Source: Candidatus Bipolaricaulota bacterium
Lineage (GTDB): Bacteria; Patescibacteriota; Patescibacteriia; UBA11705; DATKZF01
Assembly (NCBI GenBank): GCA_035528115.1
Contig: DATKZF010000003.1
Location: 551,089-615,088 of the forward strand
Length of the DNA: 64,000 nucleotides
Direction: 5' to 3'
Part shown: positions 13,980 to 57,660 of the stretch, in pieces
Position numbering within the stretch: the first letter of the stretch is position 1
Layout: each line of letters begins with the position of its first letter
Program-made: the position numbers and the translations under genes
The notes under the pieces: generated by a model
What the model was told of the DNA's origin: nothing
The model's database searches: none
Seen by the model: the letters and a program-made list of their open reading frames with translations, nothing else

Positions 13980-14324
13980 TTCAAAGACGATGTTGAAAAA
14001 TCCGACCGAGCGTCGGATTTTTTTGTTGTCGAATGAAAAAGCGGAGAGTCAAGCTCTCCGCTGGGGATGGATTTGAATTTTTGTTTTGTAGAATTTCTTT
14101 AGCGGAAAAAGCGGAGAGGCAATTTTTCCGCTGGGATTGGATTTGGGTTTTTGCCCAATGAAAAATTTTATTAGCAGGCGCAAAGGCTTTTTATTGGTGT
14201 GTATTTTTTCCCTTACCAGCGGAGAGCTTGACTCTCCGCTCATGGATTTATTTAAAATAAATAGCCGAGGTTCCTTGTTAGAAACCTCGGCCAAACGAAC
14301 GTGTGCGCGACTCGCGGTCATCGC

Positions 14325-15074
14325 TCATCGCTTTCGACAGCGATAGACTTTGAGCCGCGCGGGTTTGTCTCCGGCGTTGAGGACGAACGCGTTGAACACG
14401 CCGTCCTTGACCTCGCCGCTTTGGGTAGGACCCCAAAGGCAGGTCGCGCCGAATTTTTTTGGAGACACCGGCCAAAGGCTGGACTCCGTGTTGGAAAATC
14501 CAACATGGATTACGGCATCGCTCGGTGAAACATTGTCCACCAGGATGCCGAGCTGCCGGCCGTCGGCTTTGAGCATGACCTGCTTGCCCGGCAGGATTTC
14601 CTGGTCGAGCAGGAGCGGCATGCCGGGGTGAGTCCGTTCCGCGGGCGCGATCGGTGTCGCTCCCGCGGGGTTGGGGCGGCGGAAGCTTTCGAGGATCTCG
14701 CCACCGCACGAGATCATCCCGTAACCGAGGTAGCCCACGAATCCCAGCGCGGCAAGCCCCGCCAGGATCGCGCATACCGCGGTTACAATGTCCAACGACT
14801 CGCCGGCCGTATCGAAGGCCTTGGCCGGTTTTTTCGCCGGTGCCGGCGCCGCTGTCGGCGTCGTCGTTGCGGCGGGAGTGGACTCACTTGGCGCCGGGGT
14901 TGGCGCCGCCGTGGTCGCAGCGGCGGGCTTTCGGCTCGGGATGAGCGCGATCGCCAACGCGGCCACCAGACCGGCCGCGGCCAGGCCGGCCTCCCAGCGC
15001 CCCGAGACCATGATGGCCAGCGGAGCGAGGAGGAGGAGGAGGCCGATGAGCAACAGAATTCTTCCCGCTTTCAT
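14325..15074 (-). CDS. Membrane protein with a Pro/Ala/Thr-rich linker and a C-terminal beta domain (possible NfeD-like partner of the SPFH protein)
   Basis: Two N-terminal TMs, a PT-rich linker, a third TM, then a C-terminal domain. Overlaps the upstream SPFH gene by 1 nt. The GC-rich composition is unlike the surrounding sequence. Confidence 0.4.
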   Translation of the reverse strand: MKAGRILLLIGLLLLLAPLAIMVSGRWEAGLAAAGLVAALAIALIPSRKPAAATTAAPTPAPSESTPAATTTPTAAPAPAKKPAKAFDTAGESLDIVTAVCAILAGLAALGFVGYLGYGMISCGGEILESFRRPNPAGATPIAPAERTHPGMPLLLDQEILPGKQVMLKADGRQLGILVDNVSPSDAVIHVGFSNTESSLWPVSPKKFGATCLWGPTQSGEVKDGVFNAFVLNAGDKPARLKVYRCRKR

Positions 15075-16063
15075 CAGCTCTTCCCTCCAAGCCCCTTGAG
15101 GGCGTTCTGAAGAATGCCGGCGATATCGAGCGACAGCACCAACTTGGAACTGCCGCTGGAACCGATGGCCTTGGCCGCTTCGATGGCGGCCATGGCCTTC
15201 ATGTATTCGGCTTTCTGGCCTCCGCTCTCGAGCAGACCTAGCGCCTCGAGGGCCTCGGCCTCTGTCATCATGGCCACGGCCTTGCCCTCGGCCACCTTTA
15301 TGGCGACCTGCTTGGCCGCTTCGGCGTCGATGATCGCTCGCTCGCGCTCTTTCTCGGCGATTTTCACGCCAAGCGCAGCCTTTTCCAGCTCCGCTTTCTG
15401 CTGGAGCTGAATTCGAGGCACCTCATCGAGCGCCTGACGAATAGTTTCGTCGGCTGCCCGAATGACGTTGACTGTGACGCCCTCGAACAGGACGCCCCAT
15501 TCGCTTTCCTTTGTTTTGAGTTCATCCAGGATGGCCTTGGCAAGCTCTTTGCCCGCGCCAATCATCTTGTCGTAGCTTGTTGCGGCTGCCTGGCGTCTAA
15601 ATTCCCCCTGTACCTCGTCTTTGATCAGCTCGTCCTCGAGCCGACCGTGAACTGATAGAAAGAGTTTGACGCACTCGATCTCGGACAACCCGTGTTTGGT
15701 TGCCCATTTTTGTGGATCCAAACGCCAGTTGACCGAGATGATCTCAGCCAGAACGTCCATCCAGCCGACTTGTTTGTCAGATTCATCGTTCACCTTCGCG
15801 CGCGCCTCGAGCGAAGAGTAGTCCCTTGATTGCGTTTCGCGGGTGAAGTACGGCTTGTCGTCCGAGAACCTCTCGAGCGACTGGAGCAGCAGTTTGTTGA
15901 TCACGCGGATGCCCGCGTGCTTGACGGCCTCGATGCCGCCGCGGCCCATGACGATCATGATGTCGTTGGGCCGGAGAAAGTGGATGCGAAAGATCGCTCC
16001 CAGGATGAGAACGATCGTGCCCAGACCCATGACGAGCCCCAATAGCCAGTAATACTCTTCCAT
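15074..16063 (-). CDS. SPFH/band-7 family protein (flotillin/HflK-like)
   Basis: N-terminal TM, an SPFH-like core, and an Ala/Glu-rich coiled-coil tail (AELEKAALGVKIAEKERERAIIDAEAAKQ). The region is GC-rich. Confidence 0.5.
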   Translation of the reverse strand: MEEYYWLLGLVMGLGTIVLILGAIFRIHFLRPNDIMIVMGRGGIEAVKHAGIRVINKLLLQSLERFSDDKPYFTRETQSRDYSSLEARAKVNDESDKQVGWMDVLAEIISVNWRLDPQKWATKHGLSEIECVKLFLSVHGRLEDELIKDEVQGEFRRQAAATSYDKMIGAGKELAKAILDELKTKESEWGVLFEGVTVNVIRAADETIRQALDEVPRIQLQQKAELEKAALGVKIAEKERERAIIDAEAAKQVAIKVAEGKAVAMMTEAEALEALGLLESGGQKAEYMKAMAAIEAAKAIGSSGSSKLVLSLDIAGILQNALKGLGGKS

Positions 16064-16199: not shown

Positions 16200-16382
16200 A
16201 CAAAAAAACCCACTTTTTGGGTGGATTTTGAATATTAAATTGGGTGTTACAAATTACATTCACTATTTAGCTCCTGTTTGTATTGTTACGAAATTACATT
16301 CACTTATAGCCTTATGCCATAGAAGATTGTAATTTGTAACAGATAACCAAAAGCTAATTAGAATCTTGTAATTCGTAACAAT
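16200..16382 (+). repeat. AT-rich intergenic repeat array (gttacgaattacaa family)
   Basis: Contains the conserved aaattacattcactaaatag and gtaattcgtaac blocks shared with at least nine other intergenic regions. Confidence 0.6.
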
Positions 16383-16793
16383 TTATTGCTGCAGAGCCCC
16401 GATAATAAAGGAAACCAAGGCGTAACTGGTAAAGATGATTACCAAGCCGATGGTCGCGTAAAGCATGGCATTTTTGCCTTTTTTGATTTGCTCGGGATTG
16501 CCCCCGGAAATCAGCCAGAGCACGCCTCCGTAAATGAAGACGGCCAAAGCGGCCGTGCCCGCAATGCCGATCAATGACTTGATGATTCTGCCGACAACAA
16601 CATTGAGGTCAGTGGCTTCAGCGCCGAGCGGATTGGGCAATTCGAGCGAAGTATTGACAGGCGTTTCCGCCGGAGGCACTGTCTCCGCGGGCGGCACTGT
16701 TTCAATGGGAGGAGAGGTTTGCGCCAAGGCGAAAAGGGGAATGAATAAAAGCGGCATCAGACTTAGAATGATTTTTATTTTTGTTTTTGCCAT
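16383..16793 (-). CDS. VirB2/TrbC-like (T4SS-pilin-type) small pilin protein
   Basis: Signal peptide, a Pro-rich segment, and a two-helix hairpin IGIAGTAALAVFIYGGVLWLISGGNPEQIKKGKNAMLYATIGLVIIFTSYALVSFI. The same domain is found at the N-termini of 36344..38194 and 38241..45320. Confidence 0.6.
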   Translation of the reverse strand: MAKTKIKIILSLMPLLFIPLFALAQTSPPIETVPPAETVPPAETPVNTSLELPNPLGAEATDLNVVVGRIIKSLIGIAGTAALAVFIYGGVLWLISGGNPEQIKKGKNAMLYATIGLVIIFTSYALVSFIIGALQQ

Positions 16794-16795
16794 AT

Positions 16796-18250
16796 TTAGA
16801 TTGATTTCTTAGTTGAAATTATTTTTTTCCAAGTTTGTTTTTTGAAACTGCCGATGTGAGCCTTGGCGTTTCTGGTTTTAACGAATTTGAGCCATTGCGG
16901 ATTGGGGCCTTTTCTGTTTTTATCGAGAGTGATCTCGACCACATCGCTGTTTTTCAATTTGGTTTCCAGAGGCACGTGAATGTCATTGACGTAAGCGCCG
17001 CCGCATTTATTGCCGACGTCCGAATGGATTTGATAAGCGAAGTCAATCGGCGTGGCGCCGTCCGGCAAATCAATGACATCGCCTTTGGGCGTGAACACGA
17101 AAATTCTATTTTGGAAAAAGTCGATTTTTAATGTTTCCAAAAATTTATCGTCGTCTTTTATTTCTTTTTGCCAATTGGCCAATTCTTTGACCCAGGCGAT
17201 GTCTTTTTCCTTGATGCCTTTTGATTCTTTGTAATGCCAATGAGAGGCAATACCGTATTCGGCCTGATTGTGCATTTCTTGAGTTCTGATTTGGAATTCG
17301 ATCGGTTCTTGATTGTCTCCGAAGACGGTGGTGTGCAGCGAGCGGTAGCCGTTGGGTTTGGGTTGGGAAATATAATCCTTAATTTTGCCTTTGATCGGCT
17401 TCCAGAGACTGTGAATGATGCCGAGCGTGGCATAGCAGTCGGCGACGTCTTTTAAAATGATTCGCGCGGCCACCAGGTCGTAAATGCGGTCAATGTCTTT
17501 GTTGCTTTTCATCAGTTTTCTGTACAAACTGTAATAATGTTTGGTGCGGCCGTAAGCGTCAATGTATTTTATTTTATTTTCGATCAATTTTCGTTTTAAT
17601 TTTTTCAGCATGGCGTCCATGGCGCGCTGTTTGAATTGCAATCTTTTCTTGATCAAATTTTCAACCCAGATGTATTCATCGGGAAAGGCGTATTTAAAAG
17701 ATTCATCTTCGAGTTTGGCTTGCAATTCTCCGATGCCCAGGCGGTTGGCGATGGGCGCGTAAATTTCCAAAACCTCCATGGCGATTCTTTTTTGCTTGTT
17801 GGCGGGCAGGGCGTAGAGAGTGCGCAAGTTATGCAGACGATCCGCGAATTTGATGACAATGACTCTGATGTCTCTGGCCATGGCCACGAACATTTTTCTC
17901 AAATTTTCGACATATCGCTTCATGCCTCGGTATTTGACCGTGCCCAGTTTGGTGACGCCTTCCACCATGCCGGCCACGTCGTCCCCGAAATTCTTTCTGA
18001 CATCTTCCAGCGTGTAGGTCGTGTCTTCGGGCACATCATGAAGCAGGCCGGCGATGATCATGTTGGTGTTGACTTTCAGATCGGCCAGGTTTTGCGCTGT
18101 GGCCAAGGCATGATCGATATAATCCACGCCCGTGGCGCGGCGCTGGCCATCATGCGCTTTTTTCGCGAATTCATAAGCCAGTTCCACCATTTCCAGGTCG
18201 GCTTTGGGATTGTACTTTTTTATGGTTGTGAGCAGTTTTCTAATGGTCAT
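16796..18250 (-). CDS. rel: Bifunctional (p)ppGpp synthetase/hydrolase Rel (HD-Synth-TGS; lacks the long C-terminal regulatory region)
   Basis: Intact HD motif LLHDVPEDT, synthetase motif YRSLHTTV, and a TGS domain. Confidence 0.8.
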   Translation of the reverse strand: MTIRKLLTTIKKYNPKADLEMVELAYEFAKKAHDGQRRATGVDYIDHALATAQNLADLKVNTNMIIAGLLHDVPEDTTYTLEDVRKNFGDDVAGMVEGVTKLGTVKYRGMKRYVENLRKMFVAMARDIRVIVIKFADRLHNLRTLYALPANKQKRIAMEVLEIYAPIANRLGIGELQAKLEDESFKYAFPDEYIWVENLIKKRLQFKQRAMDAMLKKLKRKLIENKIKYIDAYGRTKHYYSLYRKLMKSNKDIDRIYDLVAARIILKDVADCYATLGIIHSLWKPIKGKIKDYISQPKPNGYRSLHTTVFGDNQEPIEFQIRTQEMHNQAEYGIASHWHYKESKGIKEKDIAWVKELANWQKEIKDDDKFLETLKIDFFQNRIFVFTPKGDVIDLPDGATPIDFAYQIHSDVGNKCGGAYVNDIHVPLETKLKNSDVVEITLDKNRKGPNPQWLKFVKTRNAKAHIGSFKKQTWKKIISTKKSI

Positions 18251-18257
18251 AAATACA

Positions 18258-19862
18258 TTATAGCAGACCTTTAAGTTTAAGGTATCTTTTTATCTGCTTT
18301 TCCGCTTGCGGCGTCTTGACGAAATTCAACCAGTCCAGATCCGGGCCTTCCGAATTGATATCGGGAATTATTTCAATCACGTCCTCATTTTGCAGTTTTC
18401 TGTTCAATTCCGCCGGTTGATTGTTGATAATCGCGAATTTGCAGTAATTGCCAAGGTCGCTGTGAATCTGATAAGCGAAGTCCACGGGGGTCGAGCCTTT
18501 GGGCAGGGAAACGGCGTCGCCTTTGGGCGAATAGACGTAAATTTTTTCTTGAAATATTTTGCTGACCTCGTCTTCCCAAACGTTTTTGTGAAACAATGAT
18601 TTGCCCGTGTGGAGAATTTTTTTCGTCCAGTCGTCCTCTGATTCCTTGTTTTTATAAAAAAGCTGGGCGGCAATGCCGAATTGAGCGGAGCGGTGCATGT
18701 CCTTCGTTCGGATTTGAAATTCGGTCAATTGATTGCCGGGCCCGATGATCGTTGTGTGCAAAGTTTGATAGCCGTTTGATTTGGGAGAGGCGATATAGTC
18801 TTTTATTCTTTTGGGCACGGGCGGCCACAATCCGTGAATCAAGCTCAACATTAAGTAACAGTCGTCGACCGAATCGACAATAACGCGCAAAGCAAACACA
18901 TCGTAAATATTATTGAACGTTTTTTGTTTGGTTTTCATTTTTCGGTAAATGCTGTAGTAGTGTTTGAATCGGCCGTTGACATCGCATTTGATTTTCTTTT
19001 CTTCCGCCTCGTTTCTGACGGTTTTGGCGAGTTTGGCAATGTATTTGTCTCGTGTTTTTCTGTCTTCTTCGCCGAAACGTTTTTCGATTTTTTGATATTC
19101 TTCCGGCTGGAGTATGCGGAAGGAATAATCTTCGAGTTGCCAGCGAAGATGCCACACGCCCAGCATGTCCGCGATCGGCGCCAAAATTTCTTTGGCTTGT
19201 TTGGCCACGAGATAGCGATCTTCATCCGGTATTCTTTCGTAATTGATCAGAGAATCAATGGCCGAGGCCATTTTCACCAAAATTATGCGCACGTCTTGAG
19301 ACATCACCAGCAGGATTTCGCGTACATTGCTGTTGAAGCTTTTGGTTTTGTTGGCATAGTGATTGATTTTTTTGTACGTTTGCAAAATGTCCGCTAATTT
19401 TTTTCCCAACTTCTCTTCCACGATTTTGTCGGATTCGGGATTGAGCCGAGAGACATGGTGCAAAAGACCGGTGATAATCGTCAAATGATCCATGCCGGTT
19501 CGGCTTAATATCTCGGCGGTATTCAGGGAATGCCGCATGTATTCGATCTTTTGTATTTCCGAGAAAAGAGCCACGGCCAGATTCAAGGCCATGGCTATTT
19601 TAACGTTTTCTTCGCCGATGAGGGTCTTTATTTCTTTTTCCTTATCGGGATGATTTTTTAATATTTTATGCGCCAGCGCCGCGCCAATGAACCCCGCGCC
19701 GGCTCTGCCGGCCGCCAGCCGGTTCGCCAATTCGATTGTTTGAGATTTATCGTCAAAGCTCAATTCTCCGGCCGCGTTTTGGAAATATTCAAACATTGCC
19801 GAGAGAGCTTCGTGCCCTTCCGGCTTTCTTTCGATATATTCCGAGAGTATTTTGCTTTGCAT
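18258..19862 (-). CDS. relA: RelA/SpoT paralog with a degenerate HD domain (synthetase-only type)
   Basis: HD is replaced by LLHHVSRL (no Asp), the synthetase motif GYQTLHTTIIG is intact, and TGS is present. It sits in tandem with rel. Confidence 0.7.
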   Translation of the reverse strand: MQSKILSEYIERKPEGHEALSAMFEYFQNAAGELSFDDKSQTIELANRLAAGRAGAGFIGAALAHKILKNHPDKEKEIKTLIGEENVKIAMALNLAVALFSEIQKIEYMRHSLNTAEILSRTGMDHLTIITGLLHHVSRLNPESDKIVEEKLGKKLADILQTYKKINHYANKTKSFNSNVREILLVMSQDVRIILVKMASAIDSLINYERIPDEDRYLVAKQAKEILAPIADMLGVWHLRWQLEDYSFRILQPEEYQKIEKRFGEEDRKTRDKYIAKLAKTVRNEAEEKKIKCDVNGRFKHYYSIYRKMKTKQKTFNNIYDVFALRVIVDSVDDCYLMLSLIHGLWPPVPKRIKDYIASPKSNGYQTLHTTIIGPGNQLTEFQIRTKDMHRSAQFGIAAQLFYKNKESEDDWTKKILHTGKSLFHKNVWEDEVSKIFQEKIYVYSPKGDAVSLPKGSTPVDFAYQIHSDLGNYCKFAIINNQPAELNRKLQNEDVIEIIPDINSEGPDLDWLNFVKTPQAEKQIKRYLKLKGLL

Positions 19863-19973
19863 ATTTATGTTTCCATTATAACAAATTTACAGAGATGTCA
19901 AAGGGAAAAGTCAATAATTATTAAAAAACAGCTTAAAATCGATGGGAGGCATTGTTTTGCGATTTATAAACAT

Positions 19974-20002
19974 TGACAAAATTAAAAATGTTTGCTATAA
20001 TA
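19974..20002 (+). promoter_or_regulatory. Perfect-consensus sigma70 promoter (TTGACA-17-TATAAT) driving a short transcript
   Basis: ttgaca aaattaaaaatgtttgc tataat. No protein-coding gene lies downstream. Confidence 0.55.
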
Positions 20003-20008
20003 CATATG

Positions 20009-20085
20009 TTGATGTTTTGGGACAGTTCCCAATGACGCGAACACTCCTTGTGCGTTTTCCTGCAAGGAGTGTTTTGTTTTAAACG
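20009..20085 (+). ncRNA. Candidate small RNA, possibly encoding a leader peptide (9-codon ORF MLMFWDSSQ), ending in an intrinsic terminator
   Basis: The consensus promoter immediately upstream is followed by the stem aacactccttg/caaggagtgtt and a ttgtttt T-run. Confidence 0.35.
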
Positions 20086-20300
20086 TTACAAATTCCAGCA
20101 GCTGATAAGCTAGCCTTGGTTTTAGTTTTTGTGAGTCGTTACGAATGATTACAAATACGTTTACGTTACGAATTATTGCGGCTATTTAGCTATCCTTAGC
20201 GTCATATTTATTACAAATACGTTACAAATTCCAGCAGCTGATAAGCTTGCCTTGGTTTTTGGCTTTGTGAATCGTTACGAATAATTACAAATAATGGGCG
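20060..20300 (+). repeat. AT-rich tandem repeat array (ccagcagctgataagc... and gttacgaat units)
   Basis: Two ~140-bp direct repeats: acaaattccagcagctgataagcttgccttggtttt...tgtgagtcgttacgaatgattacaaat. Confidence 0.6.
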
Positions 20301-20304
20301 TAGG

Positions 20305-20450
20305 CGTTGTCATCTCGACCGCCTGCCTGCTCCTCGAGTCTGAGCTCGCCACTCGGCCGTGAGCTCGTGGCCGAACGGGAGTCGAAGACCGGCAGGCAGG
20401 AAGTCGTCCGAAGCCGCGGCGAAGGATGACGAAGTGGAGAGAGCTTTTCC
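20305..20450 (+). repeat. GC-rich modular element, full A-B-C copy (MITE-like)
   Basis: Module A cgttgtcatctcgacc, module B palindromic cctgcctgc...gcaggcagg, module C aagtcgtccgaagccgcggcgaaggatgacgaagtggagagagcttttcc. Confidence 0.7.
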
Positions 20451-20635
20451 ATCTTGATTAAAAAGATTTATTCATTTTTTTTTCATGAATCGCGTTTTAT
20501 CAACACGGCGATTGGTTTTCAATCAATGATTTGCTAAAATATACGCGAGGGCCGCCGGAAACCCTAGCATCAACAATGTCATTGGGGTTACTATCCGGCA
20601 CCCTCACTTTCAAAATAAAAAATAAAAAATAAAAT

Positions 20636-20680
20636 ATAAAAAAATTGGAGTCCCTTGGCGGGACTTTTTTGTTTTTAAAA
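20636..20680 (+). terminator. Intrinsic terminator-like hairpin (agtccc ttggc gggact plus T-run)
   Basis: Hairpin followed by ttttttgttttt. It may terminate an unannotated ncRNA from the 20.45-20.64 kb region. Confidence 0.4.
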
Positions 20681-20699
20681 TGGAAAGAGGAGTTTTAAA

Positions 20700-20800
20700 C
20701 GCTTTGCCACTTTGCGATTTCCCGCCCGCCTGTTGGCGGATTTTTATTGTAATGACGGAAAGGGGGCTCGGGAAATAAAAAAGAGGCGATTGCCTCTGAT
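20700..20800 (+). repeat. Left ~100-bp direct repeat flanking the 20808-22326 cassette; contains a bidirectional terminator hairpin
   Basis: gatttcccgcccgcctgttggcgg...aatgacggaaagggggctcgggaaataaaaaagaggcgattgcctctgattttt matches 22355-22480 at roughly 80% identity. Confidence 0.6.
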
Positions 20801-20807
20801 TTTTTTA

Positions 20808-24809: not shown

Positions 24810-25170
24810 ATGTTACAAATTACAAATAAATACAAATATTACCCTTCGACTCGCCCTTTGCGAAGCCTCGGGCTCGCTCAGGGCAGGCAAATGAGTTACA
24901 AATTACGATTAAGAAAAAAAATTATAAATGCAATATGCTTTTGATACTGCCATTATTTTGGAAAGTTGTCAAATTAAGGGATTGTTGATAAATAAACATG
25001 GAGAGTTTCGTCTCGCGCATTTGGCGCTTCACTGATAATAAAAAAATGACGCTGAGGAGGACCCTGACGAATGGAAGGGGACGACGAAGTGGGCCAGGCC
25101 GCCAGGCCATAACCTGCCCCCCGCCCTTTAAAATAAGCAATAAAAAGGGAGGGGGGACAAGGGGGGAGGG

Positions 25171-29201: not shown

Positions 29202-31166
29202 TCACATGAAATTTTTCAAATCAACAATGGCCGCCACGACGGTTTCCATGAATTTTTTCTTTTCCGCCATGGTGAATTTTTTCAACACAAAATCAGCCGT
29301 GTCTCCCATTTTCTTTTTATCTTCGCGGGCAATGCCGAGGCGCAAGCGATGAAAATCATTTGAGCCAAGAAAATCAATGATCGATTGAACTCCTTTTTGA
29401 CCGGCTGATGATCTGCTTTTTTGAATTTTGTATTCGCCCAGTAAAAAATCGACGTCGTCGTGAATCACCAGCAAGTTGTCCAAATCAATGTTGTAGTATT
29501 TGACCAATTTTTGAACGGCTTCGCCGGAATTGTTCATGAAAGTCTGCGGCTTGGCCAAAATGATTTTATTGCCGTCGAGCCTGCCCGCGGATAGCCAGCT
29601 TTGATTTTTTTTATCCAAAATCCATCCTCCAAAATCATATTGAGCTTCTTTCTTTAATTCGTCCAAAGCCGTAAAGCCCGCGTTGTGCCTCGTCGATTCA
29701 TATTCTTTGCCAGGATTGCCCAGGCCGACAATCAATTTGGTCATATTTTTACCGCTTAATTTTTTGTTTTTCGACAAAATCGCTTCTTTGGGCAACTGTC
29801 TGCTTCTTTTCGTTAAAACCAGTTTGACGCCGCTGCCGGACAAATTGAATTCTTCCCTCAGATTGTTGAGCAAATATCGGCGATAAGAAAAAATCAAATC
29901 TTGAGGTTTATCGATAATCAAAGCGAAAGTCGGCGGATTGATATCGGTTTGATTGATTTCATAAATGAAAGCCGGTTTGGTGATGTGATTTTTCGGAGGA
30001 GGGGATTGTTTTTTAATCATCTTGGACAAAAATTTATCCAGCTGTCTTTGCGGGATGATGATTTTGCGATCTTCGTAAAGTTGAATGATCATGTCGAGCA
30101 GCCGCTTCACCTTGAAGCCTGTTTTCGCGCTGGTGAAAACAATCGGCGCCCACTTTAATTGCGGCAAAAGCGACTGATAATATTCAATATATTTTTTTTG
30201 GGTGTCTTCATCCTTCTCGGGGATCAAATCCCATTTGTTCGCGACAATGATTAGGCTGGGATGCTCGTCCATGATGACCTGCGCCAAGTTTTTATCTTGA
30301 ACGGATAATTTTTTGCTGCAATCGGTGATGAAAATGGCCACGTCGATTTCACGAATGGTGTCCAAGCTTTGTTCAATGCCCAGTTTTTCCAACTTGCCTT
30401 TGATTTTACCTTTCTTGGTCACGCCCGCGGTATCGAAAAAGCGCAAGTTGTAATTTTTCCCGGAATCGGCCGAAAAATCAATGTCGATCATCTGCCGATC
30501 TCTGGTGGTGTGCGGACGTTCATTGACAATAACTCTTTCTTCGCCGGAAATTTGATTAAAGAGAGACGATTTGCCCACGTTCGGCTTGCCGATCAAGCCG
30601 ATGGAAATTTTTTCGATTTTTTCTTTCGTCTCTTTCACTGCGGGTTTTTTAAAATTCATCTTTGACAGCATCGCATCCAAAAGATCTCCGGTGCCGCGAC
30701 CGCTGGCCGCGGATATCGCGATCGGTTCTCCCAAACCCAGTTTGTAAAATTCGGATAAATTGACCTCGTCTCTGGCCGCGTCGGTTTTATTGGCGACCAG
30801 AACGATGTTTTTTTTATTTTTTTTCTTAAGCATGCCGGCGTATTTTTTGTCTCCGGGCAAAAGTCCTTCTTTGGCATTGACCATGAACAAAATCAAATCG
30901 GCTCGCTTGATGGCTTTTTCCGCTTGGATCAGCGATTGCTTTTCAATCAAGTCCGGATCCTCGACATCCAGACCGGCGATGTCCACCATGGTCATGACTT
31001 TGCCGCGCCAAACACAGTCGCCGTATTGGCGATCTCTGGTCGTGCCGGCGATATTGGAAACAATGGCGTTTTCGGTTTCGGTCAATTTGTTAAATAAAGA
31101 GGACTTTCCAACATTGACTCGGCCGACCAAAACGACGAGCGGATTTTGATGTTTTATCTTTGACAT
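29202..31166 (-). CDS. der-pth: In-frame fusion of GTPase Der/EngA (two G-domains plus KH) and peptidyl-tRNA hydrolase
   Basis: G1 motifs GRVNVGKSS and GKPNVGKSS, then the Pth N-terminal signature MTKLIVGLGNPG..Y..TRHNAGF. It is a single 666-codon ORF with no intervening stop. Confidence 0.75.
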   Translation of the reverse strand: MSKIKHQNPLVVLVGRVNVGKSSLFNKLTETENAIVSNIAGTTRDRQYGDCVWRGKVMTMVDIAGLDVEDPDLIEKQSLIQAEKAIKRADLILFMVNAKEGLLPGDKKYAGMLKKKNKKNIVLVANKTDAARDEVNLSEFYKLGLGEPIAISAASGRGTGDLLDAMLSKMNFKKPAVKETKEKIEKISIGLIGKPNVGKSSLFNQISGEERVIVNERPHTTRDRQMIDIDFSADSGKNYNLRFFDTAGVTKKGKIKGKLEKLGIEQSLDTIREIDVAIFITDCSKKLSVQDKNLAQVIMDEHPSLIIVANKWDLIPEKDEDTQKKYIEYYQSLLPQLKWAPIVFTSAKTGFKVKRLLDMIIQLYEDRKIIIPQRQLDKFLSKMIKKQSPPPKNHITKPAFIYEINQTDINPPTFALIIDKPQDLIFSYRRYLLNNLREEFNLSGSGVKLVLTKRSRQLPKEAILSKNKKLSGKNMTKLIVGLGNPGKEYESTRHNAGFTALDELKKEAQYDFGGWILDKKNQSWLSAGRLDGNKIILAKPQTFMNNSGEAVQKLVKYYNIDLDNLLVIHDDVDFLLGEYKIQKSRSSAGQKGVQSIIDFLGSNDFHRLRLGIAREDKKKMGDTADFVLKKFTMAEKKKFMETVVAAIVDLKNFM

Positions 31167-31167
31167 A

Positions 31168-31620
31168 TTACAAATTACGAATAATTGCATCGAATAGGAC
31201 AAGCTTGGTTTAGGTTTATCTGTTTGCTACGAATTGTTGCTTCTATGTAGCTTGCCTTTGCCTTGAAATTACGAATAATTGCATCGAATAGGACAATCTT
31301 GGCTTTGGTTTAGGTGACTTATTACAAATAATTACGAATGAGGCGGGAAAGTTGATGGCTACTTAAAAAGCTAATAAGCTACAACCTATTACAAATAGTT
31401 GCGTCTGGCAGGACAAGCTGTGTTTAGACCTTAACGTTTATTGCGAATAATTACAAATGGTTACGAATTACAATAGACTATTCAGCTTTCAGGTTATTTG
31501 TTACGAATTACAATATTCTCAGGCATAAAGTTATAAGTTAATGTACTTTGTAACAATACAAATAAAGAGCCATTTAGTGAATGTAATTCGTAACGACTCC
31601 CCGGCTTCTCTGTTTCATGC
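31168..31620 (+). repeat. AT-rich tandem repeat array (attacgaataattgcatcgaataggacaagcttgg... and gttacgaattacaat units)
   Basis: Multiple 45- to 110-bp direct repeats that share blocks with arrays at 35900, 54400, 57440 and 60560. Confidence 0.65.
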
Positions 31621-33790: not shown

Positions 33791-35110
33791 ATGCCAAGAA
33801 GAAAAAAGACCGAAGATACGGCCATTAAAGTCAAATCGATCAAAACGCCCCAGCTCGTTAGGGGCATGAAAGACATTTTGCCGGTCGATCAAAAATACTG
33901 GCGTTTTTTGAACTCTCGCGTGGAGTCCATTGCCGTTGATTACAGTTACCGACGCATCGAAACTCCCATTTTGGAAAATATTTCGTTATTTACCCATGCC
34001 ATCGGCAAGCAAACGGACATTGTTGAAAAAGAAATGTTTGTTTTTCTCGATAAGGGAGGAGACAAGCTGGTCTTGCGGCCGGAAGGAACCGCGCCGATAG
34101 CCAGAGCCTACATCGATCACGGCATGTTAAATCTGCCTCAACCGGTCAAGTTGTATTATTCGGGTTCCATGTTTCGGCACGAACGTCCGCAATCTGGCAG
34201 ATTGAGAGAATTTCATCAAACCGGTTTTGAAATCATTGGCGACGGTTCGCCGGCGATTGACGCCGAATTGATTTTGATCGCTTATAATTTATTCAAAGAT
34301 TTGGGGATTGAAGTCAATGTGCAGGTCAACAGTATCGGCGAGCTGGGCGATCGGGAAAATTATCGCAAAGCTTTGCTTGATTATTATAAAAATAAAAAGG
34401 CGTCGCTGTGCGTTGATTGCAAAAAGCGCATTTTGAAAAATCCGTTGAGGCTGCTTGATTGCAAAAACCCCAAATGCGCCAAATTAAAAGAAAACGCTCC
34501 GCAAATGGTTGATTATTTATCGGATGACGCCAGAAATCATTTTTTCCGATTACTGGAATATCTGGATGAGTTGCAAATTCCTTACAACCTGAATCAATTT
34601 TTGGTTCGCGGCATGGATTATTACAATCGAACGGTTTTTGAGTTTTGGGAAAAAGAAGATACTGAAGGAAGGAACGCTCTCGGCGGAGGCGGACGCTACG
34701 ATTATTTGTTGGAAATGCTTGGAGGCCGGGAGACGCCGGGATGCGGATTTGCGGTCGGAGTCGAAAGAGCGCTCGGCGTGCTGAAAGAGAAAAGAGTTCA
34801 ATTGCCCGAAGCGTTGACTCCGGATATTTTTTTGGCGCAAATCGGAGAACAGGCCAGGCGGCGCGCCATGGGATTTTTTGAAGAATTGAGAAAATCGGGC
34901 TTGAGGGTGGCGGCCAATTTTTCGAAAGGCAGCCTGAAATCGCAGCTTGATCTCGCCAATAAATTGGGTGTTAAGATTGTTTTAATACTTGGACAGCGTG
35001 AAATAGTCGATGAAACTATTTTGATGAGAGACATGGACAGCGGTATTCAGGAAGTGGTCAATTTTAAGAAAATCATCAATGAAGTCAAGCGAAAATTGGA
35101 AAAGCATTGA
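33791..35110 (+). CDS. hisS: Histidyl-tRNA synthetase
   Basis: Class II HisRS motifs (GMKDILP, LRPEGTAP, FERALG) and an anticodon-binding C-terminus. Confidence 0.85.
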   Translation: MPRRKKTEDTAIKVKSIKTPQLVRGMKDILPVDQKYWRFLNSRVESIAVDYSYRRIETPILENISLFTHAIGKQTDIVEKEMFVFLDKGGDKLVLRPEGTAPIARAYIDHGMLNLPQPVKLYYSGSMFRHERPQSGRLREFHQTGFEIIGDGSPAIDAELILIAYNLFKDLGIEVNVQVNSIGELGDRENYRKALLDYYKNKKASLCVDCKKRILKNPLRLLDCKNPKCAKLKENAPQMVDYLSDDARNHFFRLLEYLDELQIPYNLNQFLVRGMDYYNRTVFEFWEKEDTEGRNALGGGGRYDYLLEMLGGRETPGCGFAVGVERALGVLKEKRVQLPEALTPDIFLAQIGEQARRRAMGFFEELRKSGLRVAANFSKGSLKSQLDLANKLGVKIVLILGQREIVDETILMRDMDSGIQEVVNFKKIINEVKRKLEKH

Positions 35111-35179
35111 CAAGAATCGGAATTTCAAGTAAATTAAATCAACGAATATTATCATATAAAGAAAGGAAGGTGAACTAAG

Positions 35180-35422
35180 ATGGTTGAAATAAGAAGAAAG
35201 AAAAATGAAACATTTGAAGCGATGCTCAGACGTTTCAACCGAAAAACTTTGGAGAGCGGCAAGTTGCTCCAATTTAAAAAAGTAAAATACCTGCAGCCAT
35301 CAAAGAGCCGCAACCTGCAAAAGGCCAGCACGCTGGTTAAGCTTGAAAGAAAAAAACAGCGAGAATATTTAAAGAAGATCGGCCAGCTGCCCGAAGAAGA
35401 AACAACATACAGGAGAAGATAA
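35180..35422 (+). CDS. rpsU: 30S ribosomal protein S21
   Basis: MVEIRRKKNETFEAMLRRFNRK... is the typical bS21 sequence. Confidence 0.8.
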   Translation: MVEIRRKKNETFEAMLRRFNRKTLESGKLLQFKKVKYLQPSKSRNLQKASTLVKLERKKQREYLKKIGQLPEEETTYRRR

Positions 35423-35423
35423 A

Positions 35424-35864
35424 ATGAATATCATTGAAAAAATTGAACAGGATTATCTTGAAGCCGCCAGAGCCAAAGACAAGCTGACCGTGGCTACATT
35501 GAGATTGATCAAAGCCGCCCTGAAAAACAAGCAAATAGAAAAGATGAAGGAATTGACCGAAGAAGACGCGGCGGCCGTGCTGAAAACGGAAGCCAAAAAG
35601 AGACGAGAATCGATCGAGGCTTTCGAAGCGGGCAATCGGCAAGAAATGGCCGATAATGAAAAGGCGGAATTGGCGATTATTGAAAAATATTTGCCTCAGC
35701 AGATGTCCGTTGAAGAAACCGAAGCCAAAGTCAAGGAGATTATTGAAAAAATTAAGGAAGGCGATCGCGACTTCGGCAAGGTCATGGGTTTGGTCATGAA
35801 AGAAATGAAAGGACAGGCCGACGGTCAGGTCGTTTCAGCGGCGGTAAAAAAATTCTTAAGTTAA
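35424..35864 (+). CDS. yqeY: GatB/YqeY domain protein
   Basis: YqeY family signature. It is often found immediately after rpsU, as it is here. Confidence 0.7.
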   Translation: MNIIEKIEQDYLEAARAKDKLTVATLRLIKAALKNKQIEKMKELTEEDAAAVLKTEAKKRRESIEAFEAGNRQEMADNEKAELAIIEKYLPQQMSVEETEAKVKEIIEKIKEGDRDFGKVMGLVMKEMKGQADGQVVSAAVKKFLS

Positions 35865-35899
35865 AACTTTTATAAAAATCGGCTCGGATAGGGTCGGTT

Positions 35900-36230
35900 T
35901 TTTTATCTTCATTATGGAAATATTACGAATTACAATATTCTATTTAGCTTTCAGGTTATTTGTTACGAATTACAAGATTCTGTTTAGCTTCTATGTTATC
36001 TGTTACGAATTACAATATTCTATTTAGCTTCTATGTTATTTGTTACGTATTACAATCGACTATTAAGCTTTCAGGTTATCTGTTACTAATTACAATCATC
36101 TATAGCTATATGCCTTAGAATCTTGTACTTCGTAACGATCGTTTCTAAGCCAAATGGAACCTTGTACTTCGTAACAATATAAATAAAGAGCTATTTAGTG
36201 AATGTAATTTGTAACGACGCGCGGCGTTTG
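35900..36230 (+). repeat. AT-rich tandem repeat array (gttacgaattacaat units of ~45 bp)
   Basis: About six tandem units. It ends with the conserved block aataaagagctatttagtgaatgtaatttgtaacgac, which is also present at 31560-31600. Confidence 0.7.
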
Positions 36231-36343
36231 TTGATAACTTTCCGAAAATATTCTTTTCTAAAACCGCAAAATATTGTACAATATAATCAACGACATTCGG
36301 GCTGAAAACGTCCGATGATCGGAGTTTTCGACTTGAAACAAAA

Positions 36344-54399: not shown

Positions 54400-54720
54400 T
54401 TTGAATATTACGAATCTCTACTTCCGATAGGACAAGCTAGGTTTAGGTTTATCTGTTTTGGTTACGAATTACTAAAGCTGTTTAGCTTGCCTTGGCCTGG
54501 AAATTACGAATCTCTACTTCCGATAGGACAAGCTATGTTTAGGTTTAACTGTTTTAGTTACGAATTACTAAAGCTGTTTAGCTTGCCTTGGCCTAGAAAA
54601 TCGCGAATATCTATTTAAATTAGGACAAGCTAGGTTTAGGCCTTGTTTGTTTTGTTACAAATACAGAATTCCAAATAGCTTAGCTTGGCGATGAAAGCTA
54701 CGAATAATCTTTTTATTAAG
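54400..54720 (+). repeat. AT-rich tandem repeat array (~120-bp units, reverse orientation of the 60640-61070 array)
   Basis: The unit attacgaatctctacttccgataggacaagctaggtttaggtttatctgttttggttacgaattactaaagctgtttagcttgccttggcc is repeated. ggacaagctaggtttaggccttgtttgttttgttacaaata is the reverse complement of the units at 60700. Confidence 0.7.
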
Positions 54721-57439: not shown

Positions 57440-57660
57440 ATTGTTACGAATTACAATCATCTAGTGGGCCGATTAATATATGTTACAAATTACATTCATC
57501 CATGGCTTTATGTTTGAGAATCTTGTAATATGTAACAAATAACATAGAAGCTAAATAGAATCTTGTAATTCGTAACAAATAACCTAAAAGCCAAACAGTC
57601 GATTGTAATTCGTAACAGATAACCTAGAAGCTAAATAGAATTTTGTAATTCGTAACAATA
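57440..57660 (+). repeat. AT-rich tandem repeat array (reverse orientation, cttgtaattcgtaacaaataacct... units)
   Basis: About four ~45-bp units. Confidence 0.65.

What the first reader, a model, noticed from the sequence alone, without database searches (positions are those of the whole stretch)
16383..19862. Tandem RelA/SpoT paralogs (one HD-intact, one HD-dead) co-oriented with the small pilin gene
The 16796..18250 protein has an intact hydrolase HD motif (LLHDVPEDT) plus synthetase and TGS domains. The 18258..19862 protein has HH in place of HD and lacks the ED pair, but keeps the synthetase and TGS domains. This is a local tandem duplication that appears to have produced a RelA-like (synthetase-only) and a SpoT/Rel-like (bifunctional) enzyme. 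Both are short forms without the ACT/RRM tail. The small VirB2-like pilin gene starts 3 nt after the rel stop on the same strand, so the pilin may be co-transcribed with the stringent-response genes.
Basis: partly seen in the sequence, partly recalled or inferred. Interest (0 to 1): 0.55.

Follow-up and report, generated by a model that had tools for sequence, protein, structure and literature searches.

The report
Paired truncated alarmone enzymes in Patescibacteria
An ultrasmall (CPR/Patescibacteria-type) bacterium carries two adjacent, shortened RelA/SpoT-type genes, one with a dead hydrolase site and one intact, followed by a small pilin-like gene; the pair is old and conserved across many related genomes, and it repeats the RelA/SpoT division of labour independently rather than being a recent local duplication.

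Summary
Three tightly packed minus-strand genes are present:
- B (18258-19862, 534 aa)
- A (16796-18250, 484 aa)
- a 136-aa PF18895 pilin-like gene (16383-16793)

A keeps every hydrolase and synthetase catalytic residue. B keeps only 2 of the 8 hydrolase-site positions scored, but it keeps all synthetase residues and the TGS histidine. Both proteins end shortly after the TGS domain and lack most of the helical domain, the ZFD and the RRM/ACT.

- The order topA-B-A-pilin-domain gene-parB recurs in 10 genomes examined, and about 25 more B/A pairs are inferred from shared contigs.
- B-to-A identity is about 37.5% whether or not the two come from the same genome.
- B is never sister to A's clade (0-2% bootstrap).
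- B's synthetase region groups with the single hisS-linked Rel of other Patescibacteria. The hisS-linked slot in this window is empty.

The most likely function is a RelA-like synthetase plus a bifunctional Rel/SpoT-like enzyme in one operon. Co-transcription with the pilin gene is plausible: the gap is 2 nt, one promoter lies upstream of B, and one terminator follows the pilin. It is untested.

I rate this a new variant of a known kind, of moderate interest.

The parts
19875..19901 (-). Predicted promoter of the unit: TTGACA (19901-19896), a 15-nt spacer, then an extended -10 TGTTATAAT (19883-19875). It ends 12 nt before the B start codon.
   Evidence: Read by eye from the sequence. The automatic scan requires a 16-18 nt spacer and so missed it. 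Function is inferred, not shown.
18258..19862 (-). Gene B: truncated long RSH with a pseudo-hydrolase domain, [hS] type, 534 aa (NCBI HUT22671.1).
   Evidence: Domains and structure matches. Residues. AlphaFold2 model with pLDDT 82.6. Best Foldseek hits are Rel/RelA/SpoT structures. Accession.
19560..19862 (-). B residues 1-101: an N-terminal helical region specific to the B class, about 58 residues longer than the equivalent part of Rel. It evolves fast.
   Evidence: The model has six confident helices at residues 4-99, ahead of the HD_4 match that starts at residue 102. H111 aligns to Rel H53. Only 3 library proteins align across this region.
19152..19559 (-). B residues 102-237: the pseudo-HD domain. 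Of the HD-site positions, H111 and H135 are kept. H136, R139, L140, S200 and S204 replace D78, E81, D82, D144 and N148.
   Evidence: The same degeneration is seen in all 31 B-class proteins scored.
18642..18974 (-). B residues 297-407: synthetase (RelA_SpoT) domain with an intact active site (G297, R298, K300, K308, D321, R326, R352-I-K354-D355, Y365, H369, E381, Q383, R385).
   Evidence: (invariant columns).
18366..18542 (-). B residues 441-499: TGS domain. H467 corresponds to B. subtilis Rel H420, the histidine that reads the tRNA CCA end.
   Evidence: The role of H420 is from PMC7797070.
16796..18250 (-). Gene A: truncated bifunctional-type Rel [HS], 484 aa (NCBI HUT22670.1). HD domain is residues 25-173 (17732-18178), synthetase domain 234-344 (17219-17551), TGS domain 383-440 (16931-17104).
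   Evidence: TIGR00691 592.7 bits, above 499.2; E 7e-147 to B. subtilis Rel 6YXA.
16383..16793 (-). Small VirB2-like pilin-family gene, 136 aa. It has a signal peptide (MAKTKIKIILSLMPLLFIPLFALA), a Pro-rich linker and a two-helix hydrophobic PF18895 domain.
   Evidence: PF18895 43.0 bits, above 26.6; TrbC 24.8 bits, below 27.9. (NF045849 30 bits, below 40). Genes at the same position in other genomes have the same signal peptide and C-terminal domain.
16205..16229 (-). Terminator-like hairpin followed by a T-run, about 155 nt after the pilin stop. It is followed by a strong promoter-like site (16182-16154) for the next gene, which encodes an SPFH/Band_7 protein.
   Evidence: These are consensus matches only.

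Best explanation
What it is: a three-gene unit in a Patescibacteria-type genome, in the order promoter, B, A, pilin-like gene, terminator.

A and B are both natural minimal long RSH enzymes. Each has HD, SYNTH and TGS domains plus a short helix, and lacks most of the helical domain, the ZFD and the RRM.

Protein A has every catalytic residue of both active sites. [quoted passage not shown]

Protein B has lost the Mn2+ ligands and the ED diad of the hydrolase site, and it has gained extra N-terminal helices. Its synthetase residues and the TGS histidine are kept invariant across the whole B class. I predict it is a synthetase-only enzyme whose pseudo-HD serves as a regulatory scaffold, as in E. 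coli RelA.

Inferred working model:
- Uncharged tRNA is read by the TGS histidine. This pushes B (and A) towards synthesis and suppresses A's hydrolysis.
- A removes the alarmone when charging recovers.
- Transcription from one promoter fixes the ratio of the two enzymes.

Evolution: the pair is ancient and conserved, not a recent duplication.
- A belongs to a Rel lineage that resides between topA and parB.
- B is nearest, in its catalytic core, to the hisS-linked Rel that other Patescibacteria and outgroup phyla carry.
- The hisS-linked slot in this window is empty.

The pilin-like gene is a conserved downstream neighbour and is probably co-transcribed in this genome.

Shown here: sequence, domains, residues, synteny, and the rejection of a recent duplication. 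Inferred: enzyme activities, the tRNA signal, and operon status.
For: Domains.

Residue mapping to B. subtilis Rel.

Conservation across groups:
- The HD-site set is invariant, with rare D82->E/N exceptions, in 36 A-lineage, 51 hisS-linked and 27 outgroup proteins.
- It is degenerate in all 31 B-class proteins. D144 is S in 29 and A in 2.
- The principal synthetase catalytic residues (R241, K243, K251, D264, D298, Y308, E324, Q326) and H420 are invariant in every group, including B.

Within the B class the HD region is 35% identical and the synthetase region 69%. In the A-type clades the figures are 73-79% and 75-77%.

Literature on the residues:
- The HD and ED motifs and Mn2+ are essential for hydrolysis, and RelA's pseudo-HD is regulatory (PMC9974481).
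- D264G abolishes synthesis and H420 reads the tRNA CCA end (PMC7797070).

Synteny:
- The B->A order is found in 10 genomes, with TopA upstream and ParB downstream where visible.
- A-like single genes sit at the same topA-parB locus without B or a pilin gene.
- hisS-linked single Rel genes are seen in 33 of 48 loci, and rel lies near hisS in 9 of 28 outgroup loci.
- There is no rel remnant elsewhere in the window.

Age of the split.

Operon signals.
Against: - There are no biochemical or expression data for any CPR RSH. I found no paper on them.
- A also keeps an intact synthetase site, so B's synthetase looks redundant unless the two are regulated differently.
- Both lack the ZFD and RRM that dock Rel/RelA on the ribosome. 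In B. subtilis Rel, deleting them compromises synthesis (PMC7797070). Starvation sensing through tRNA may therefore not work as in the RelA model.
- B keeps the RXKD motif (R352-I-K-D) rather than RelA's EXDD. The link between these motifs and enzyme type is from my own knowledge of the literature.
- The phylogeny is neighbour-joining on Kimura distances only. The partitions disagree on where B attaches: with the hisS-linked group for linker+SYN, and outside both groups for the C-terminal third.
- The hisS-linked sample was retrieved with patterns derived from B. Masking those columns did not change the result.
- In other genomes the A-to-pilin gap reaches about 155 nt, which is enough room for a separate promoter.
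Confidence: 0.7

Rival explanations
1. One reading: a recent, lineage-specific local tandem duplication of one rel gene. One copy then lost its hydrolase site.
For: The two genes are adjacent, co-oriented paralogs with the same truncated architecture.
Against: - The pair is conserved in 10 examined genomes whose A proteins are only 60-81% identical to each other.
- B-A identity is the same within and between genomes, 37.6% against 37.5% over 34 pairs.
- A B+A-clade grouping gets 0-2% bootstrap in all partitions.
- A-like genes occur alone at the same locus.
Confidence: 0.03
2. Complete subfunctionalisation. In vivo, A acts only as the hydrolase (like Moraxellaceae SpoT) and B is the only synthetase.
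For: - Removing ZFD+RRM from B. subtilis Rel raises hydrolysis and compromises synthesis (PMC7797070). A is naturally truncated even further.
- A's linker and synthetase region sits on a long branch.
Against: - The synthetase catalytic residues are essentially invariant in all 17 tandem-partner A proteins (one G240->S; R295 is K in 3), as they are in A-like proteins that stand alone.
- B is truncated in the same way, so the truncation argument applies to it as well.
Confidence: 0.2
3. B is a non-catalytic pseudoenzyme that only regulates A, for example as a heterodimer partner or tRNA sensor.
For: B's HD domain is dead and its N-terminus is novel and fast-evolving. The tandem arrangement would suit a partner protein.
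Against: - Every synthetase catalytic and substrate-binding residue scored is invariant in 31 B-class proteins that are only about 40% identical overall, apart from one R269->T.
- The synthetase region is the best-conserved part of B, at 69% identity.
Confidence: 0.06
4. The pilin-like gene is an independently expressed neighbour, and its adjacency to rel has no functional meaning.
For: - PF18895-domain genes are abundant. There are three in this 64-kb window, and arrays are common in Patescibacteria (PMC12102498).
- The A-to-pilin gap is 25-155 nt in most other genomes.
- A weak promoter-like match (9 of 12 positions) lies at 16846-16818 inside the 3' end of A.
- A-like single genes at the same locus have no pilin neighbour.
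Against: - The gap is 2 nt here and 4 nt in L087, with no terminator-like site with a good T-run between A and the pilin.
- A pilin-domain gene follows A in 8 of 9 assessable tandem genomes.
- The hisS-linked Rel genes also sit next to pilin-domain genes.
Confidence: 0.3

Closest known systems
E. coli-type RelA / SpoT pair (Beta- and Gammaproteobacteria)
   Same: - Two long-RSH paralogs derived from a bifunctional Rel.
- One has a catalytically dead pseudo-HD and an intact synthetase ([hS]). The other has an active HD.
- The TGS histidine that reads the tRNA CCA end is retained in both.
   Different: - Independent origin. B scores 321.9 bits against the RelA equivalog cut-off of 728, and A scores 447.5 against the SpoT cut-off of 947. 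All relatives are Patescibacteria.
- Both enzymes lack most of the helical domain, the ZFD and the RRM.
- B keeps RXKD rather than EXDD.
- B has an extra N-terminal helical segment.
- The two genes are adjacent in one probable operon. E. coli relA and spoT are unlinked (own knowledge).
Lineage-specific second long RSHs RshA-RshD (Atkinson et al. 2011, PMC3153485)
   Same: - They are extra, more divergent Rel copies confined to one lineage.
- RshB shows RelA-like divergence of its HD domain.
[quoted passage not shown]
   Different: - Different phyla (Actinobacteria, Bacteroidetes, Bacilli, Deltaproteobacteria).
- Here both copies are truncated, and the truncation is the norm for the Patescibacteria Rel proteins sampled.
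- The dead-HD copy is fixed in tandem with its partner.
Bifunctional Rel of Firmicutes (B. subtilis Rel, PDB 6YXA; S. equisimilis RelSeq, 1VJ7)
   Same: These are the closest solved structures to both proteins: A at E 7e-147 and B at E 9e-93 to 6YXA. A has identical catalytic residues in both sites.
   Different: The Firmicute enzymes are about 730 aa with a full regulatory C-terminal region. A and B stop near B. subtilis position 485-495.
VirB2-like pilins (PF18895/PF04956) of Patescibacteria (PMC12102498)
   Same: The small protein passes the PF18895 threshold. It has a signal peptide and two hydrophobic helices. Multiple paralogs per genome is typical for this group.
   Different: - It is not next to virB4 or any other type IV secretion gene in the parts of this window examined.
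- Genes at the same position in other genomes carry up to about 1200 extra residues between the signal peptide and the pilin domain.

Membership tests
Long RSH (RelA/SpoT homologue) superfamily, A and B | An N-terminal HD or pseudo-HD domain followed by a SYNTH (RelA_SpoT) domain | tested here: met
   Pfam HD_4 plus RelA_SpoT in both proteins. PDB hits to Rel/RelA/SpoT. The Foldseek search with the B model returns the same structures.
Long RSH (RelA/SpoT homologue) superfamily, A and B | TGS domain with the histidine that recognises the tRNA CCA end (B. subtilis H420) | tested here: met
   TGS scores 79.4 and 76.8 bits. The equivalents are H409 in A and H467 in B, invariant in all groups.
Long RSH (RelA/SpoT homologue) superfamily, A and B | A full regulatory C-terminal region: helical domain, ZFD/CC and RRM/ACT | tested here: not met
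   There are no Pfam hits beyond the TGS domain. The alignments end near B. subtilis residue 485, whereas the ZFD-RRM deletion construct keeps residues 1-583. Both ORFs end at TAA and the next gene follows within 2-7 nt.
Bifunctional Rel [HS], protein A | Intact hydrolase site: H53, H77, D78 and D144 (Mn2+ ligands), the E81-D82 diad, R44 and N148 | tested here: met
   All eight are present in A. They are essentially invariant in 36 A-lineage proteins; D82 is E in 3. PF01966 HD is hit. Enzyme activity itself was not tested.
Bifunctional Rel [HS], protein A | Intact synthetase site, and a score above the curated family threshold | tested here: met
   D258, Y302 and E318 (equivalents of D264, Y308 and E324) and the basic residues are present. 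TIGR00691 scores 592.7 bits, above 499.2.
RelA (GTP diphosphokinase, NCBIfam NF008124 equivalog), protein B | Score at or above the equivalog cut-off, meaning orthology to proteobacterial RelA | tested here: not met
   B scores 321.9 bits against a cut-off of 728. It is also below the TIGR00691 cut-off (432.3 against 499.2). All close relatives are Patescibacteria.
RelA-like [hS] functional type, protein B | A dead hydrolase site combined with a conserved synthetase site | tested here: met
   B keeps 2 of the 8 HD-site positions scored, and the whole B class is degenerate. All synthetase residues are invariant apart from one R269->T. Activity was not tested.
RelA-like [hS] functional type, protein B | An acidic EXDD motif in place of RXKD, and ribosome-docking ZFD/RRM domains | tested here: not met
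   B has R352-I-K354-D355. It has no ZFD or RRM. That this motif distinguishes the types is from my own knowledge of the literature.
SpoT (NCBIfam NF008303 equivalog), protein A | Score at or above the equivalog cut-off | tested here: not met
   447.5 bits against a cut-off of 947.
T4SS_pilin (Pfam PF18895), 136-aa protein | Score at or above the Pfam gathering threshold, with a signal peptide and two hydrophobic helices | tested here: met
   43.0 bits against 26.6. The signal peptide and the two hydrophobic segments were read from the sequence.
TrbC/VirB2 (Pfam PF04956) and Mbov_0395 pilin-like (NF045849), 136-aa protein | Score at or above the curated threshold | tested here: not met
   PF04956 scores 24.8 bits against 27.9. 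NF045849 scores 30 bits against 40.
Type IV secretion system locus | A pilin gene encoded near virB4 and other secretion-machinery genes | tested here: not met
   The 38 larger ORFs scanned are housekeeping or surface-protein genes, or gave no Pfam hit. None hits VirB4, VirB6 or VirD4. Smaller ORFs were not all scanned.
Single operon (B, A, pilin) | One transcript spanning all three genes | not testable with these tools
   Only indirect signals are available: gaps of 7 nt and 2 nt, a consensus promoter upstream of B, and a terminator-like hairpin after the pilin.

The most novel reading that the evidence does not exclude
A large part of the Patescibacteria may run alarmone signalling with minimal HD-SYNTH-TGS enzymes that cannot dock on the ribosome through ZFD/RRM.
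- If so, starvation would be sensed off the ribosome. The sensor would be the TGS histidine reading uncharged tRNA, or, in the B class, the new N-terminal helical module.
- One clade has independently re-created a RelA/SpoT-type division of labour inside a single operon.
- That operon, like the hisS-linked rel of sister lineages, is physically tied to genes for secreted proteins carrying a pilin domain.
- This could couple nutritional state to the surface structures these episymbionts use on their hosts.
Probability: 0.15. Interest if true: 0.7.

Novelty: new variant of a known kind. Interest (0 to 1): 0.45.

Why it matters
The RelA/SpoT split is the textbook case of subfunctionalisation in bacterial stress signalling. 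It has been tied to ribosome-dependent sensing through the C-terminal domains.

This locus shows an independent, conserved split in genome-reduced, host-dependent bacteria. Both partners naturally lack most of the helical domain, the ZFD and the RRM. That gives two things:
- A natural experiment on what the minimal HD-SYNTH-TGS core can sense and regulate.
- A second evolutionary replicate for how pseudo-hydrolase domains are retained.

It also corrects the annotation of the B class. B-class proteins are labelled 'HD domain-containing protein' (including this window's B) or 'bifunctional (p)ppGpp synthetase/hydrolase' in public records, yet their hydrolase site is dead.

The recurrent adjacency of rel genes to pilin-domain genes is a testable lead on how CPR bacteria might link starvation to surface structures.

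Tried and rejected
- **Library search with B residues 1-240.** I searched the 1.84-billion-protein library to count B-class members. Only 3 hits aligned across the N-terminal extension and the rest were ordinary HD domains. The region evolves too fast for a single-sequence search, so I obtained no count.
- **Group-consensus informative sites.** Too few columns passed the threshold, so this was uninformative. I replaced it with quartet and bootstrap analyses and profile scoring.
- **Gene conversion between tandem partners.** No signal: 37.6% against 37.5% identity. The TGS domain showed only a trivial excess (57.2% against 56.2%, p=0.013).
- **Other RSH genes or remnants in the window, including the empty hisS slot (tblastn).** None found.
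- **Rfam search of the whole window and of the 945-nt gap upstream of B.** Only the three tRNAs were found. No riboswitch or known sRNA lies upstream of B.
- **Pilin-domain gene downstream of A in L005.** None was detected and no clean ORF is present, so that locus counts as the one exception.
- **Literature on ppGpp or RelA in CPR, Patescibacteria or Saccharibacteria.** Nothing specific was found. One search failed on term syntax.
- **Toxin-type small alarmone synthetases.** Considered and rejected. Both proteins are full HD-SYNTH-TGS long RSHs with strong Rel matches.
- **Truncation as a stop-codon-reassignment artefact.** Considered and rejected. Both genes end in TAA, and the next gene starts 2-7 nt later.

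Full report
**Observation**

- B at 18258..19862 (534 aa)
- A at 16796..18250 (484 aa)
- a 136-aa ORF at 16383..16793

Pfam results:
- A has HD_4 (164.6 bits), the generic HD family PF01966, RelA_SpoT (140.8 bits) and TGS (79.4 bits).
- B has RelA_SpoT (137.5 bits), TGS (76.8 bits) and only a weak HD_4 match (82.9 bits) that begins at profile position 14. B has no PF01966 hit.
- The small ORF passes PF18895 T4SS_pilin (43.0 bits against a cut-off of 26.6) but not TrbC/VirB2 (24.8 against 27.9).

A exceeds the NCBIfam RelA/SpoT subfamily threshold (592.7 against 499.2). Neither protein reaches the RelA or SpoT equivalog thresholds. A and B are 38% identical.

The gaps are 7 nt between B and A, and 2 nt between A and the pilin gene (TAA-AT-ATG).

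**Active sites**

I mapped both proteins onto B. subtilis Rel (PDB 6YXA) using the HMMER alignments.

A carries all hydrolase residues: R44, H53, H77, D78, E81, D82, D144 and N148.

B keeps only the two histidines (H111 and H135). The other positions are changed:
- D78 is H136.
- E81-D82 is R139-L140.
- D144 is S200.
- N148 is S204.
- The loop that carries R44 is not alignable.

Published work shows that the HD and ED motifs, N147/148 and Mn2+ binding are each required for (p)ppGpp hydrolysis (PMC9974481).

Both proteins keep the synthetase residues. These include D264, whose G substitution kills synthesis in B. subtilis Rel, plus Y308 and E324. Both also keep the TGS histidine H420, which stacks on the tRNA 3' CCA end (PMC7797070).

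Both proteins stop near B. subtilis position 485-495. They therefore lack most of the helical domain and all of the ZFD and RRM. For comparison, the ZFD-RRM deletion construct keeps residues 1-583.

An AlphaFold2 model of B (pLDDT 82.6) has six confident helices in residues 4-99, ahead of the pseudo-HD. This N-terminal part is about 58 residues longer than in Rel. Foldseek returns only Rel, RelA and SpoT structures.

**The dead-HD form is a family, not a one-off**

Among the 120 best database hits to B there are two length classes:
- Proteins of about 540-555 aa have a degenerate HD site.
- Proteins of about 485-490 aa have an intact HD site.

Counts over curated groups:
- The hydrolase residues are essentially invariant in 36 A-lineage, 51 hisS-linked and 27 outgroup proteins.
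- They are degenerate in all 31 B-class proteins. D144 is Ser in 29 and Ala in 2.
- The principal synthetase catalytic residues and H420 are invariant in every group, B included.

Within the B class the HD region is 35% identical and the synthetase region 69%. In the A-type clades the figures are 73-79% and 75-77%. This is the signature of a pseudo-hydrolase attached to a selected synthetase. Atkinson et al. described the same pattern for RelA and RshB (PMC3153485).

**Synteny**

The order B then A recurs in every B-class locus I could examine: the window, L001-L005, L081/L082, L084, L086 and L087. That is 10 genomes.

The wider block is Der/Pth, DprA, FolC, TopA, (small genes), B, A, pilin-domain gene, Band_7, and so on to ParB and ParA. 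The window has the same block.

About 25 further B/A pairs can be inferred, because the B hits and the A hits share identical longest-contig lengths. Five other pairs of this kind (P0004, P0018, P0072, P0036 and P0051 with their partners) were confirmed directly.

A pilin-domain gene follows A in 8 of the 9 genomes where sequence continues. Its length ranges from 136 to 1348 aa. In every case it has a signal peptide, a variable middle part and a conserved C-terminal VirB2-like domain.

Two other arrangements exist in related genomes:
- A-like genes stand alone between topA and parB, with no B and no pilin gene (L088-L090).
- A different single short Rel sits within about 0.3-1.2 kb of hisS, and divergent from two large proteins with an N-terminal pilin domain (L006-L051 and L085).

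Full-length rel genes of outgroup phyla are also near hisS in 9 of 28 loci. The hisS-linked position is therefore probably ancestral.

The window contains that second locus:
- hisS at 33791-35110
- a pilin+Big_5 gene at 36344-38194
- a pilin+TIG gene at 38241-45320

There is no rel gene or remnant there.

**Age and origin of the pair**

I built neighbour-joining trees from Kimura distances on MAFFT alignments of up to 145 proteins.
- The B class is monophyletic (91-100% bootstrap).
- The A lineage, made of the tandem partners plus the single topA-parB genes, is monophyletic (100% on the full-length and linker+SYN partitions).
- All the short Patescibacteria proteins together are separated from the full-length outgroups (about 90%).

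A sister relationship between B and the A lineage gets 0-2% bootstrap in every partition.

The partitions disagree on where B attaches:
- The linker plus synthetase region places B with the hisS-linked group at 97-100%. This holds when the two peptide patterns used to retrieve those loci are masked. All 31 B sequences score best on the hisS-linked profile for this region.
- The C-terminal third places B outside both groups (79%).
- The whole-length analysis is split about evenly between these two placements.

Over 34 pairs, B-A identity is 37.6% for partners from the same genome and 37.5% for proteins from different genomes. This means there is no ongoing gene conversion, and the split predates the radiation of all these genomes.

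I conclude that the two neighbours are ancient paralogs. I cannot resolve which of two histories applies:
- An old tandem duplication was followed by losses and relocation.
- The hisS-linked copy moved next to the topA-parB copy, or was transferred there, and then lost its hydrolase.

To resolve this I would need to know whether genomes with a hisS-linked rel also carry an A-lineage gene.

**Transcription signals**

- Twelve nucleotides upstream of the B start codon there is a TTGACA, a 15-nt spacer, and an extended -10 TGTTATAAT (19901-19875). I read this. The automatic scan requires a 16-18 nt spacer and missed it.
- No terminator-like site with a convincing T-run lies between B and A or between A and the pilin gene.
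- The only promoter-like match near the pilin start is a 9-of-12 hit at 16846-16818. The scan reports such hits at about twice the shuffled rate in this region (16 found against 8.6 expected).
- A hairpin with a T-run lies at 16229-16205, after the pilin gene. A strong promoter-like site for the next gene (Band_7) follows at 16182-16154.

This fits one transcription unit, but it is inference only. In other genomes the A-to-pilin gap ranges from 4 to about 155 nt.

**Mechanism proposed**

- B is a synthetase-only [hS] enzyme with a regulatory pseudo-HD and a lineage-specific N-terminal helical module.
- A is the bifunctional [HS] enzyme and the only alarmone hydrolase detected in this window.
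- Both keep the TGS histidine, so uncharged tRNA is the most likely signal.
- Both lack the ZFD and RRM that anchor Rel/RelA to the ribosome. In B. subtilis, deleting those domains raises hydrolysis and compromises synthesis (PMC7797070). That may explain why a dedicated synthetase is useful next to a hydrolysis-prone short Rel. This last step is speculation.

**Comparison with what is known, and novelty**

Functionally the pair resembles RelA/SpoT. By membership it is neither, because the equivalog thresholds are failed, the motif is RXKD rather than EXDD, and the ribosome-docking domains are absent.

It is closest in kind to the lineage-specific second long RSHs RshA-D of Atkinson et al. RshB has a diverged HD domain, and RshC is truncated after the TGS.

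I found no paper describing RSH enzymes of CPR/Patescibacteria. VirB2-like PF18895 pilins are already known to be widespread and multi-copy in Patescibacteria (PMC12102498).

I rate the finding a new variant of a known kind. It is real and conserved, and moderately interesting. The open leads are the minimal architecture, the convergent split, and the recurrent proximity of rel genes to pilin-domain genes.

**Source**

B is NCBI HUT22671.1 and A is HUT22670.1, on a 762,837-bp contig labelled 'Candidatus Bipolaricaulota bacterium'. Every close relative and the whole syntenic block are from Patescibacteria-labelled genomes, so that label is doubtful.

Noticed in passing
window 16246-16379, 20085-20230, 24812-24904, 31460-31594, 35962-36215, 54461-54566, 57443-57656, 60582, 62291: The 10-mer GTTACRAATT occurs 23 times against 0.47 expected. 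The copies cluster in intergenic gaps on both sides of the rel unit and of other transcription units. It looks like a genome-wide intergenic repeat. Similar GTAAT-rich spacers precede the pilin-domain genes in L081 and L084.
   Followed up: partly
window 19863-20807: The 945-nt gap upstream of B is unusually large for this genome and has no plausible gene. It contains four features:
- a perfect sigma-70 consensus promoter on the + strand (19973-20001), followed by a 14-bp hairpin (20039-20074);
- two 75-nt direct repeats, 92% identical (20083-20157 and 20219-20293);
- a GC-rich island of about 150 nt (about 20290-20450) that folds into a long imperfect hairpin (z = -2.15);
- no Rfam family.

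A small RNA or a mobile-element relic is possible.
   Followed up: partly
window 14001-16000: This segment is 58.8% G+C against about 43% elsewhere. It covers the SPFH/Band_7 gene (15074-16063) and an Ala/Pro/Thr-rich 249-aa ORF (14325-15074). L087 has a Band_7 gene and a hypothetical gene at the same position. The segment is therefore probably native rather than an insertion, and the composition shift is unexplained.
   Followed up: partly
window 36344-38194 and 38241-45320; L006-L051, L085: Two large surface-type proteins (616 and 2359 aa) carry an N-terminal PF18895 pilin domain fused to Big_5, TIG or Ig-like domains. In about 45 other Patescibacteria genomes the equivalent pair lies immediately upstream of, and divergent from, the hisS-linked rel gene. 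rel genes are thus next to pilin-domain genes in two different genomic contexts.
   Followed up: partly
window 35111-36343: This is the slot between hisS (plus a 146-aa ORF) and the pilin+Big_5 gene, where related genomes carry their single rel. Here it is empty and holds only GTTACRAATT repeats. No RSH remnant was found by tblastn.
   Followed up: yes
window 29202-31202: A single 666-aa ORF combines a Der/EngA double-GTPase (with its KH-like domain) and a C-terminal peptidyl-tRNA hydrolase. In L088 and L089 these are separate genes (adjacent in L089; separated by a diacylglycerol-kinase gene in L088). This is either a real fusion or an assembly or frameshift artefact.
   Followed up: no
P0062, P0079, P0100 (database hits to B): Three other short RSH proteins have partly degenerate hydrolase motifs. 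Examples are HHD..QQ..ERDT in P0062, a 637-aa form (P0079), and HNG in place of HHD in P0100. They fall outside the B class in the tree. Hydrolase loss may have happened more than once in this radiation.
   Followed up: no
whole window / NCBI records HUT22670.1 and HUT22671.1: The source contig (762,837 bp) is labelled 'Candidatus Bipolaricaulota bacterium'. All close homologues, the syntenic block, the small genome-sized contig and the PF18895 expansion point to Patescibacteria. Several related MAGs are labelled 'uncultured Gammaproteobacteria', which is equally doubtful.
   Followed up: partly
window 16383-16793: The exact 136-aa pilin sequence starting at ATG 16793 is not in the 15-billion-protein collection, although A and B are. 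The public annotation probably uses another start or omits the gene. Genes at the same position in other genomes support the Lys-rich signal-peptide start used here.
   Followed up: partly
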